Below are positions 30,001 to 33,000 of a stretch of 59,428 nucleotides of DNA, piece after piece. Position 1 is the first letter of the stretch. Each line of letters starts with the position of its first letter. The position numbers were made by a program. Source of the stretch: Candidatus Aenigmatarchaeota archaeon (GTDB lineage: Archaea > Aenigmatarchaeota > Aenigmatarchaeia > QMZP01 > QMZT01); NCBI GenBank assembly GCA_016932215.1, contig JAFGDH010000037.1, positions 1 through 59,428 on the forward strand. The letters are read 5' to 3'.

Positions 30001-33000
30001 CACCACGTTATGAACCCTTTTGACCTCTCCGCCCTGTGAATATATGCTGGATATCTCGGAAGAAAGCACGAAAGGGAAACCGTTACCATATTTTGGAATG
30101 CCGCTCCCGTCCTCGTTCAGCGTTTCTTTCAGCTCTTTGAGCCATAAGGGGTGAGTGAAATCACCCGTACCCAGCAAACCCAGCCCCTTCATTTTGGCAT
30201 ATTCCACCAGATTGGCTATGCTTATGTTCTTGCTCGTGGCACGGCTGTATTTTGAATGGATGTGGAGATCTGCGATTATTTTCATGATTCAACCTGAGAC
30301 TATATTGTAATTAAGTCTTATAATTGAAAAGAAAAAATATGGGCTCGTGGGGATTCGAACCCCAGACCTCCGGCTTTCCCAGTTTGAGGTTAAAACTTAC
30401 CAGGCAAATGCGCCTGGCGGCCATATAAGACCGGCGCTCTAACCAAGCTGAGCTACGAGCCCATTATTCAAGAGACGCAGAACGAAGTTCTGCGTCATGT
30501 GCTGTTTCGGGAGAAGCATACCTCGTATGCTTCATGCGCTTATTTCTTTTATACGTTGTTTACGATTTAATTAATTCTGTCAAAAAGGTTTATATTTGTT
30601 CGGAATGTGGGTAAATGAAGGGAAGGCAGGGATAATGCTTAAAAACCATTCGAGTATAATATGTATATCCTTTATAAGGGTTAAATGAAAAATAATTGAG
30701 AATTGATCATATTTGAGATATTAAACGGAGGTGATTGAGATGAACGGACAAGGTTTACAACCTATCCTGATATTGCCCGAGGGAACGATGAGGACCAAGG
30801 GCAAGGAAGCGCAGAAGAACAACATAGCTGCGGCTATTGTCATTTCTGATACGGTCAAGACAACGCTCGGACCAAAGGGAATGGACAAGATGCTGGTGGA
30901 CTCCCTCGGGGATGTAACAATAACGAACGACGGGGCCACCATACTTGACGAGATGCAGATAGAGCATCCTGCGGCAAAGATGATAGCGGAGATAGCCAAA
31001 ACACAGGACGAGGCGGTCGGTGACGGAACGACGACGGCCGTCGTTATAGCAGGCGAGCTTCTCAAAGAGGCAGAAAAGCTACTTGAACAGCAGATACACC
31101 CCACTGTAATCACTAAGGGATTCAGGCTCGCCAAAAACAAGGCTCTGGAGGAGCTGGAAAGGCTTGCAAAACCGGTAAACATAAAAGACGAGGCCACGCT
31201 CAGAAAGATTGCCAATACCGCAATAACGGGCAAATCGGCCGAAAAGGCTTCTGATATATTCACGAATCTTTCAGTCAAGGCCGTAACGAGGGTAGCCGAT
31301 GTTTCGGCGGCAGGAGTCAATATCGATGCCGAGAACATAAAAATCGAAAAGAAACAGGGAGGTTCGATGGCAGACACCGAACTGATCGAAGGCGTTGTCC
31401 TGGACAAGGAAGTGGTTCACTCAGCGATGCCGAGGATGATCGAAAAGGCGAAGATAGCGTTGCTGGACTCTGCCCTCGAAGTCAAAGAACTGGAGGGCGA
31501 CGCGAAGATAAGCATAGATTCTCCCGACAAGATGCAGGCCTTCCTTGACCAGCAGGAGGCCAGCCTGAGAAACATGGTAAAAAAGGTCATCGATTCTGGC
31601 GCTAATGCCGTATTCTGCCAGAAGGGAATAGACGACATAGCCCAGCACTACCTTTCCAAGGCCGGGATAATGGCAGCCAGAAGGGTCAAGAAATCAGACA
31701 TGGATGCGCTCACGCGAGCTACGGGAGCTAAGATAGTGTCCAACGTGAAAGACCTTTCGAAGGACGACCTTGGTTATGCAGGTCTCGTGCAGGAGAAGAA
31801 GATAGCAGGCGACCAGATGATCTTCGTCGAGAGATGCAAAGACCCGAAAGCGGTGACTTTACTCCTTCGAGGTGGATCAGAGCATGTCGTTGACGAGGTT
31901 GAGAGAGCCGTGGAAGACGCGGTCAAAGGCGTCATAGCCGCGCTCGAGCTCGGCAAGATAGTTCCCGGCGGGGGAGCGATAGAGATCGAACTTTCCAAAA
32001 TCCTCAGAAAATACGCAGACTCGTTCCGCGGAAGGGAGCAGCTTGCCATAAGCGCATTCGCCACGGCACTCGAATCCATACCGAGGAGCCTGGCTGAGAA
32101 CGCGGGTCTCGACCCGATAGACAAGATCGCCCAGCTTAAGGCAGAGCACGACAAGAACAACACCGCATTTGGCCTGGATGTATTCACGGGAAGGGTCCAG
32201 GACATGTTCAGGGACGGCGTCGTGGAGCCGATGAAAATAAAGCAGCAGGCGCTTAAATCAGCATCCGAGGTCACCGAGATGATACTCAGAATAGACGACA
32301 TCATCTCAGGCGGACAGAAGGAAAGCGCCCCCTCAATGCCGCCCGGCGGAATGGGCGGTGGCATGGGCGGAATGTACTGAGCCGGACAAAAAGGTATACG
32401 CTAGGCGTATACCTGCCCCTTATTTCTTTTTAATCTTTTCCGAAAAAACATTTATATTGGGAAAGCCATAAATTATTATTATGGTTGATGACGAATACGA
32501 GATTATTCCTACCTCGCCAATTCGAAGGCTAGAGCGAAGGATGGAAAGGGTGGAGGGCGGATCTTCTTCTTCAGAGGTTCATAAACTCATAGAACAGGTC
32601 GTGGAACTCATAAAATCCAACCAGCGGATAATAGACGATTCCATAAAAGCAAACAACGACCTCATAGCAGAGGTTTCCAAGGTCCCGAAAAGGGTTGACG
32701 ACCTTATAATGGAGATGAGGGAGTTCATGAAGCTCCTGAGAACGTCCGCTGAAAGCGAAGAGGTCTCTGCCGTCTCCAAAGAGGTAATGGAACCGCTCGT
32801 TGGCAAGATGTCAGAACTGATAGACCAGAACAAGAAGAACTTCGAGACGAACCAGGCAGCCCTCACCACGCTCGGTGTAATAGAAAAGCGGCTGAAAAGG
32901 CTGTATTACCAGTCTGGCCAGCCTGCAACATCATCTTCATCTAATCAGGCAATGGATTATGGGAGGTAAAAAAATGAGGAAAGGTATAACGCCAATAGTA

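What a model noticed while it worked through the whole genome (the two positions that open the first line are those of the whole stretch)
30340..30462. Order-wide loss of TiaS with a tRNA-Ile(UAU)
The genome has an intron-bearing tRNA-Ile with anticodon UAU and no agmatidine synthetase TiaS, though AUA is its commonest Ile codon. This holds for the whole order QMZP01, not just stray species.
Evidence so far: tRNA sequence with loop CU-UAU-AA and BHB intron; same in G001, G002. TiaS_FLD in 0 of 91 order genomes, control archaea ring. The UAU motif once each in 64 of 91, 21 of 22 family genomes, reversed control 0. AUA 15,638 against AUC 7,909 and AUU 4,264. The CAU tRNAs found are initiator (C29) and elongator Met (C21).
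(Added by a program. Inside this text positions count along the whole contig: contig position 1 is position 1 of the stretch shown here. "Call 12" and the like, gene names such as g00115 and contig names such as C1 are that model's own, and its searches are not shown. The text may have been shortened before it was handed on; [...] marks where a part breaks off. The agent that wrote the report below was given it as the finding of a first reader that could run no searches.)

Follow-up and report, generated by a model that had tools for sequence, protein, structure and literature searches.

The report
Spliced tRNA-Ile(UAU) replaces TiaS, phylum-wide
This small archaeon has an intron-containing isoleucine tRNA gene with the anticodon UAU, and neither it nor any of 371 genomes of its phylum shows the usual enzyme TiaS, so it likely reads its commonest isoleucine codon directly, a solution already known from a few tiny archaea; its intron is predicted to fold back in a way that may mark the wobble base for modification.

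Summary
The gene is real: a tRNA at 30340-30462 (-) with anticodon UAU, an Ile-type acceptor and a 48-nt intron at 37/38. AUA is 54% of Ile codons. 'Order-wide loss' understates it: TiaS is undetected in 0/371 genomes of the phylum, and in 0/201 and 0/151 sampled from two other DPANN phyla. Ile-type genes in the phylum are 90 UAU to 1 odd CAU. The trait was inherited, not lost in this order. The principle is published (Nanoarchaeum, Korarchaeum, ARMAN), and this scan has reported it on many other genomes, including this order. What remains open is AUG avoidance. The intron start can pair back on the anticodon stem in 78/81 phylum genes against 1/18 Met introns. In other archaea an ACA sits at one fixed register (10/20), mimicking a T-arm/CCA substrate of Cbf5; earlier AI notes gave me this lead. 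This order has lost that ACA (0/49), has an eroded Cbf5 PUA domain and mostly lacks Elp3. I put intron-directed pseudouridine-34 at about 0.45 and unmodified U34 at about 0.35; neither is tested. New member of a known kind.

The parts
30424..30462 (-). 5' exon of tRNA-Ile(UAU), positions 1-37: G1-G2-G3-C4 acceptor, D arm, anticodon stem, loop C32-A37
30425..30427 (-). anticodon U34-A35-U36
   Evidence: the same anticodon in 90 of 91 Ile-type matches in the phylum
30376..30423 (-). 48-nt intron at canonical 37/38, relaxed BHB
30418..30422 (-). intron nt 2-6, predicted to pair with positions 32-28 and put the anticodon in a six-base loop
   Evidence: pair probability 0.86 in this pre-tRNA; possible in 58/61 + 20/20 phylum genes
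30400..30417 (-). internal hairpin of the intron
30388..30396 (-). 9-nt intron segment complementary to the D-loop/D-stem 3' strand (30444-30436)
   Evidence: 9/9 pairs here; 8-9 of 9 in 18/18 family genes
30378..30381 (-). intron strand of the BHB central helix, pairing with 32-35
30340..30375 (-). 3' exon: A38, G39 (U31.G39 wobble), variable loop, T arm, acceptor strand, discriminator A73
30505..30546 (-). upstream hairpin element also found upstream of two other tRNA genes (C39, C30); role unknown

Best explanation
The window holds an intron-containing tRNA-Ile gene with anticodon UAU in a genome without detectable TiaS; it is likely spliced by the genome's epsilon2-type endonuclease and likely reads AUA directly, and its intron is predicted to fold back first so that U34 would be modified, most likely to pseudouridine, which would limit AUG misreading. 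Shown: the gene, its anticodon, the intron, no TiaS hit at phylum scale, AUA as the main Ile codon, and the presence of EndA, IleRS, Cbf5/TruB, Pus10 and TruD. Inferred with high confidence (about 0.92): splicing, charging with Ile, AUA reading, and inheritance of the trait from an ancestor older than the order. Inferred with moderate confidence (about 0.45): intron nt 2-6 pair with positions 32-28, so that U34 is the second base of a short loop, as U55 is in a T loop. In other archaea this hairpin runs about 12 bp and is followed after one base by ACA, the geometry of T arm + acceptor stem + CCA that Cbf5 binds. In this order the ACA is gone and Cbf5's PUA domain is eroded, so the enzyme would be the shortened Cbf5 or Pus10. 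Loss of Elp3 and competition by tRNA-Met would add to fidelity.
For: TiaS 0/371, 0/201, 0/151. 90 UAU to 1 CAU among Ile-type genes. The intron base facing position 34 in the BHB helix is A in 46/57 Ile(UAU) phylum genes and G in 16/17 Met(CAU) genes, so U34 is old and not a sequence error. [quoted passage not shown] Fold-back pairs 32:i2 and 30:i4 are possible in 58/61 phylum genes, 20/24 other archaeal genes and 1/18 Met introns; shuffles give mean 8.3, max 18 of 58; a further set gave 20/20. All 7 genes with C31 have G at i3, and one family member has a two-sided change at 29:i5. ACA is at intron nt 15-17 in 10/20 other-archaeal introns against 9 of 673 other positions. TruB_N is in 3/3 ACA holders and 0/2 genomes without the hairpin. 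Cbf5 binds tRNA through PUA and CCA, and Pus10 modifies a mini-substrate and CCA-less tRNA (PMC2018633, PMC1616971). Elp3-bearing genomes have the hairpin intron or C38 in 39/40 cases, Elp3-less ones in 46/61. Precedent: yeast intron-dependent Psi34 blocks ncm5U34 (PMC6582322); a haloarchaeal U34 mutant becomes cnm5U and binds AUG (PMC3895270).
Against: The ACA is absent in this order (0/49) and rare in the rest of the phylum (2/29), so the strongest signal is not in this gene. The hairpin is the predicted dominant fold in only 17/57 phylum genes and 6/24 others. Its two best pairs never vary, and the covariation score in 15 family genes is reached by 31/500 shuffles, so G-N-C may be a sequence motif. 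Five cells at 31:i3 in that alignment do not pair. The loop has A where the T loop has C56 (recalled as a TruB determinant). A rigid acceptor+T minihelix was not modified by aCbf5. Three of 64 phylum genes have no anticodon-loop intron. Unmodified U34 discriminates AUA from AUG well in M. mobile and B. subtilis, and yeast ncm5U34 barely misread AUG in a reporter. The Elp3 table rests on few independent lineages. No RNA data.
Confidence: 0.5

Rival explanations
1. Same tRNA and AUA reading, but U34 stays unmodified. Fidelity comes from weak U.G wobble, the anticodon-arm context (U31.G39), the ribosome, loss of Elp3 and competition by tRNA-Met; the intron fold-back is a relic here or a splicing feature.
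For: Shown for M. mobile and a B. subtilis suppressor. Elp3 is in only 8/91 order genomes and not in this one. TruA is in 1/66. The ACA is lost in the order. Intronless genes exist (3/64). U31.G39 is in 42/60 phylum and 27/37 other archaeal genes against 5/78 bacterial UAU genes.
Against: It does not explain why intron nt 2 and 4 stay fixed in Elp3-less genomes (42 of 46 intron-bearing), nor the 8-9 bp anti-D segment in 18/18 family genes.
Confidence: 0.35
2. U34 is modified by another route: 2-thiolation by the NcsA-like enzyme, or 2'-O-methylation by a C/D guide.
For: An NcsA/TtuA-like protein and fibrillarin are present; the Met introns carry a C/D-like guide for position 34.
Against: 0/82 Ile introns carry the guide-plus-box-D motif. 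Of 12 genome-wide C/D candidates only one had a C box; three were checked (two inside long ORFs, the C-box one inside a 98-aa ORF call). NcsA acting on U34-U35 anticodons is recalled, not tested.
Confidence: 0.08
3. A divergent TiaS or an imported TilS still modifies an unassembled tRNA-Ile(CAU), and the UAU gene is redundant.
For: The MAG is 89% complete with about 29 tRNAs found; the genome search starts with a loose first look; no full-length TiaS profile was run. Some bacteria hold both systems.
Against: Two TiaS domains are negative, including 98 genomes at least 90% complete. Only 1 of 91 GG-start matches has CAU, and it has G1.U72. The four full-length PP-loop proteins scanned score best as NcsA (167-228 bits) against 46-59 bits for TilS. 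Elp3, Pus10 and EndA are found readily in the same genomes.
Confidence: 0.04
4. The gene is a pseudogene or is not spliced, because the fold-back outcompetes a weak BHB.
For: h' is 1 bp, and the constrained fold-back is about 8 kcal/mol below the BHB fold.
Against: Exons are nearly invariant across 15 family genes, a 4/4 central helix is found in 49/57 genes, no other AUA reader was found, and AUA is 4.3% of codons.
Confidence: 0.03

Closest known systems
tRNA-Ile(UAU) of ARMAN-2, -4, -5 (Fujishima 2011, PMC3239211; passages read)
   Same: UAU anticodon, no tRNA-Ile(CAU), no TiaS, 37/38 intron, epsilon2-type endonuclease
   Different: Longer intron (48 nt against 25 nt) with a relaxed BHB and an anti-D segment; shown here for a whole phylum; the passages read propose no role for the intron
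tRNA-Ile3(UAU) of Nanoarchaeum equitans and Ca. Korarchaeum cryptofilum (PMC3575796 Table S1 rows; PMC8450103 and PMC6000648 passages)
   Same: GAU + UAU + two CAU genes and no tiaS; the Korarchaeum gene has an intron
   Different: Described as rare, species-specific gains (2 of 167 genomes); here it is the rule in the three DPANN phyla searched
Mycoplasma mobile tRNA-Ile2(UAU) and the B. subtilis tilS-less suppressor (PMC3575796 Discussion; PMC3919564 section 24)
   Same: AUA read by U34 without a modified C
   Different: Bacterial, U34 shown unmodified, bacterial-type IleRS
Yeast pre-tRNA-Ile(UAU) with intron-dependent Psi34/Psi36 by Pus1 (PMC6582322 abstract and section 15)
   Same: Intron-bearing UAU gene; logic of an intron-directed modification that keeps a 5-substituent off U34
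   Different: No TruA/Pus1-family gene here (1/66); the predicted substrate is a hairpin loop, not a duplex; untested
Archaeal Cbf5 guide-free tRNA Psi55 activity and Pus10 (PMC2018633, PMC1616971)
   Same: Predicted geometry in other DPANN: target U second in the loop, about 12 bp, one base, then ACA
   Different: Substrate would be the pre-tRNA anticodon; the loop has six bases; this order lacks the ACA

Membership tests
archaeal tRNA-Ile3(UAU), TiaS-independent | genomic UAU anticodon in a tRNA cloverleaf | tested here: met
archaeal tRNA-Ile3(UAU), TiaS-independent | Ile-type body (GG-start acceptor, A73), distinct from Met genes | tested here: met
   19/20 CAU genes start GCC or GUC; the own Ile(GAU) gene also starts GG with A73; the identity labels are recalled
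archaeal tRNA-Ile3(UAU), TiaS-independent | no TiaS | tested here: met
   two Pfam domains, no full-length profile
archaeal tRNA-Ile3(UAU), TiaS-independent | no tRNA-Ile(CAU) | tested here: met
   1 odd CAU among 91 matches; the pattern misses genes with D-loop introns, and the own census is incomplete
archaeal tRNA-Ile3(UAU), TiaS-independent | charged with Ile and reads AUA | not testable with these tools
   IleRS present; no biochemistry
BHB intron spliced by EndA | 4-bp central helix between two 3-nt bulges | tested here: met
   4/4 with two G.U pairs
BHB intron spliced by EndA | strict hBHBh' with an intron-side helix | tested here: not met
   h' is 1 bp: relaxed form; a broad-specificity epsilon2-like EndA is present
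H/ACA-like or CCA-mimic Cbf5 substrate | ACA one base after a hairpin of about 12 bp | tested here: not met
   0/49 in the order including this gene; 10/20 in other archaea
H/ACA-like or CCA-mimic Cbf5 substrate | Cbf5 with catalytic motif and PUA domain | tested here: inconclusive
   GTLD motif intact, no PUA hit in the own 265-aa frame
H/ACA-like or CCA-mimic Cbf5 substrate | Psi at position 34 | not testable with these tools
   no RNA data
intron-encoded box C/D guide | antisense element with the target five bases before box D | tested here: not met
   0/82 Ile introns; 18/18 Met introns have it
agmatidine tRNA-Ile2 system | CAU anticodon plus TiaS | tested here: not met

The most novel reading that the evidence does not exclude
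Across DPANN the tRNA-Ile(UAU) intron is a cis-acting modification device. It refolds the pre-tRNA into a T-arm/acceptor mimic ending in ACA, so that Cbf5 writes Psi34 and Elp3 is shut out. In this order the ACA and the PUA domain decayed together, leaving a reduced loop-presenting three-way junction for a shortened Cbf5 or Pus10. Together with the C/D-like guide in the Met intron, both sides of the AUA/AUG split would be marked by their own introns. UAU would be the norm, perhaps ancestral, in DPANN rather than a stray gain.
Probability: 0.35. Interest if true: 0.75.

Novelty: new member of a known kind. Interest (0 to 1): 0.4.

Why it matters
The decoding strategy is known, but papers treat it as a rarity in two to five archaea. 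Its presence in three whole DPANN phyla changes the picture of how archaea read AUA and bears on which state is ancestral. How these archaea avoid reading AUG is open, and the intron geometry gives a cheap in vitro test. Practical point: ARAGORN misses or miscalls the gene.

Tried and rejected
my pattern had one letter too many, matched at chance level and missed the own gene; discarded. ARAGORN at a lowered threshold gave noise. The G001 TiaS_TCKD hit was rejected: the 453-aa frame in that locus is an AAA+ ATPase. TruA/Pus1 as the enzyme was rejected (1/66). Pus10 does not track the hairpin outside the phylum (40/66 overall, 28/29 in the phylum, one of them only a weak cross-hit). A C/D guide for U34: none convincing; a 13-nt match to the spliced anticodon arm on C26 lies inside an ORF. 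Reading the intron as an H/ACA pocket would target positions 26-27, not a U; rejected. The anti-D pairing is not universal: significant in 18/58 phylum and 5/24 other genes, and 2/17 Met introns. Regexes for recalled TiaS and Nop10 motifs found nothing (weak tests). No RNA holder was listed; two RNA runs of the same study laid nothing, and the DNA run's pieces did not bridge the anticodon. Paper searches with no result: Aenigmarchaeota+tRNA+agmatidine, DPANN+tRNA+TiaS (35), tRNAIle+UAU+Patescibacteria (42), tRNA-Ile+UAU+Asgard+TiaS (97); one search listed no paper on the intron model by title or abstract. Suzuki and Numata 2014 is not held, and subscription papers were not searchable. Rows dropped: L121, L195, L208 and L218 from 'other archaea' as own-phylum-like; L171 looks own-family but stayed in; L074, L076-78 and L093 from counts that need the intron end.

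Full report
The gene. Window 30340-30462 (-) is a tRNA gene (Rfam tRNA, 58.6 bits) with acceptor G1-G2-G3-C4, discriminator A73, anticodon loop C32-U33-U34-A35-U36-A37, a 48-nt intron (30423-30376) and A38. It lies between a TIGR00375-like gene and a thermosome gene, near alaS; the neighbours do not bear on its function. The intron closes a 4/4 BHB central helix with two G.U pairs but has only one pair on the intron side. [quoted passage not shown] AUA is 54% of Ile codons and 4.3% of all codons. Initiator and elongator Met genes are on C29 and C21. About 29 tRNA genes were found in this 89%-complete MAG, against up to 44 types usual in archaea (PMC6000648).

Scope. TiaS_FLD rings in the 4 control archaea and in 0/1 own, 0/371 phylum (0/98 at 90% completeness or more), 0/201 and 0/151 genomes sampled from two other DPANN phyla. 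TiaS_TCKD is over cut-off in 0/91 order genomes. That the order QMZP01 belongs to Aenigmatarchaeota is recalled. A pattern for GG-start tRNAs with YAU anticodons gave 91 matches in 88/371 genomes: 90 UAU and one CAU gene with G1.U72 and no intron; the reversed control gave 0. By group: 50/91 in the order and 38/280 outside it. A looser pattern rescued 3 of 5 missed genomes, whose genes have D-loop introns. Of 20 CAU loci fetched, 19 start GCC or GUC. A scan of 4/64 of the GTDB collection gave 120 UAU loci (about 2,000 estimated), 41 titled archaea, mostly DPANN where named, and 79 bacteria, many Patescibacteria. The trait is therefore older than the order. The intron base opposite position 34 is A in 46/57 phylum Ile genes and G in 16/17 Met genes, which confirms U34 independently.

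Prior art. Taniguchi 2013 (PMC3575796: passages, supplement rows, Discussion) lists N. equitans and K. cryptofilum with GAT 1, TAT 1, CAT 2 and no tiaS; one supplement file could not be searched. Fujishima 2011 adds ARMAN-2/4/5. tRNAscan-SE 2.0 names the type Ile3 (PMC8450103, passages). PMC6000648 (passages) found it in 2 of 167 archaea and called it a species-specific gain. PMC8007984 (passages) gives only the general rule. Searches for a phylum- or DPANN-wide report returned nothing, within a library that lacks most subscription papers and the 2014 review. This scan's own notes report the trait on many other genomes, one in this order.

AUG avoidance: what is known. Unmodified U34 favours AUA strongly in M. 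mobile and B. subtilis (PMC3919564 abstract and section 24). In Haloferax a U34 mutant becomes cnm5U and binds AUG (PMC3895270, passages). In yeast the intron directs Psi34, and without it about 40% gains ncm5U, though AUG misreading was barely seen (PMC6582322, abstract and section 15). A red-algal Pus1 also modifies 34/36 only in some intron-containing precursors (PMC9602550, abstract).

Enzymes. The own genome has IleRS, an NcsA/TtuA-like protein, TruD, Pus10, fibrillarin and a short Cbf5/TruB. It shows no Elp3 (8/91 in the order; 15/40 other phylum UAU holders; 25/37 other archaea) and no TruA (1/66).

The intron. Of 64 phylum genes, 61 have an anticodon-loop intron. Intron nt 2 and 4 can pair with C32 and G30 in 58/61, in 20/24 other archaeal genes and in 1/18 Met introns; shuffles average 8.3 with a maximum of 18. 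Twenty further phylum genes fetched afterwards gave 20/20. This hairpin would hold the anticodon in a six-base loop. In the window precursor it is predicted at probability 0.86 and about 8 kcal/mol below the BHB fold, but it dominates in only 17/57 phylum and 6/24 other minisubstrates. Covariation is thin: two pairs are invariant, one pair shows a two-sided change, and 31/500 shuffles reach the score. In the own family a second segment pairs 8-9 of 9 bases with the D-arm strand in 18/18 genes, with one-sided changes only, making a three-way junction with an inner hairpin. Introns fall into two splice registers, 37/38 (29 genes) and 38/39 (28 genes, 27 with A as the first base).

The ACA test. 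Earlier notes suggested a self-guiding intron and an ACA; I tested both. In 20 G-N-C introns of other archaea, ACA stands at nt 15-17 in 10, against 9 of 673 other positions (nominal p about 1e-13, but kin are not independent and I read the register from these same sequences). That is 12 bases plus one after the loop, the spacing of T stem + acceptor stem + N73 + CCA. Archaeal Cbf5 is anchored by PUA and CCA; it modified a flexible half-tRNA weakly alone and not a rigid minihelix (PMC2018633, abstract and section 14). Pus10 needs no CCA (PMC1616971, passages). TruB_N was in 3/3 ACA holders and 0/2 genomes without the hairpin. In this order the ACA is at that register in 0/49 genes, and elsewhere in the phylum in 2/29. 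Of 8 order Cbf5 proteins 4 give no PUA hit and 4 score 23-41 bits; 7 of 9 from outside score above 50. The device looks intact in other DPANN and reduced here.

Elp3 pattern. Among 101 parsed genes, Elp3-bearing genomes have the G-N-C intron (32) or no intron with C38 (7) in 39/40 cases; Elp3-less genomes do so in 46/61 (Fisher p 0.002). By record titles, the plain genes outside the phylum are mostly Micrarchaeota and the named C38 genes are Iainarchaeum, so there are few independent events; this is suggestive only. U31.G39 is in 42/60 phylum, 27/37 other archaeal and 5/78 bacterial genes; its effect is untested.

Verdict. The strategy is known and the loss is not this order's. I commit to direct AUA reading (about 0.92) with intron-directed Psi34 as the likeliest safeguard (about 0.45), ahead of plain U34 (about 0.35). 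New member of a known kind; interest 0.4, or 0.75 if the intron model is proved.

Noticed in passing
G000 contig C21, gene starting 1713 (-); L080-L099: Elongator tRNA-Met(CAU) introns carry an element antisense to the anticodon, followed two bases later by a box-D-like tetramer, which puts C34 at the D+5 position (18/18 introns; a C-box-like motif was found in 15). This looks like an intron-encoded C/D guide for Cm34. The review passages read (PMC7994747) name only the tRNA-Trp intron as such a guide.
   Followed up: partly
window 30505-30546; C39 9065-9106; C30 69682-69715: A 34-42 nt hairpin element, over 90% alike, lies upstream of three tRNA genes on the same strand.
   Followed up: partly
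C27 near 31130 and C31 near 8260: Two different tRNA genes share an identical 50-nt stretch spanning a T-loop intron, which suggests recent intron transposition.
   Followed up: no
own genome, e.g. C21, C29, C36, C40: Most tRNA genes carry introns, some three or four, in D loop, anticodon arm and T loop; the Trp gene spans 816 nt.
   Followed up: no
L100-L219: tRNA-Ile(UAU) is common in Patescibacteria-titled records, all parsed ones without an intron; a paper search gave nothing. TilS was not checked.
   Followed up: partly
L115, L162, L175, L184, L186, L200, L211: Intronless archaeal UAU genes with C38 all sit in Elp3-bearing genomes (7/7); intronless A38 genes outside the phylum all sit in Elp3-less ones (6/6). 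C38 may be an Elp3 antideterminant.
   Followed up: partly
L086 (G010:C74): The only GG-start CAU gene in the phylum search: G1.U72, no intron, on a 176-kb contig of an unusually large MAG; possibly viral or foreign.
   Followed up: no
window 24921-29031: Four tandem ORFs of 303-358 aa with similar signal-peptide-like N-termini (SGC motif) and no Pfam hit; likely paralogous surface proteins.
   Followed up: partly
L240 (G000:C26 near 100.4-101.2 kb): Cbf5 is shortened in the order (232-294 aa frames), with the N-terminal segment largely missing and the PUA domain reduced.
   Followed up: partly
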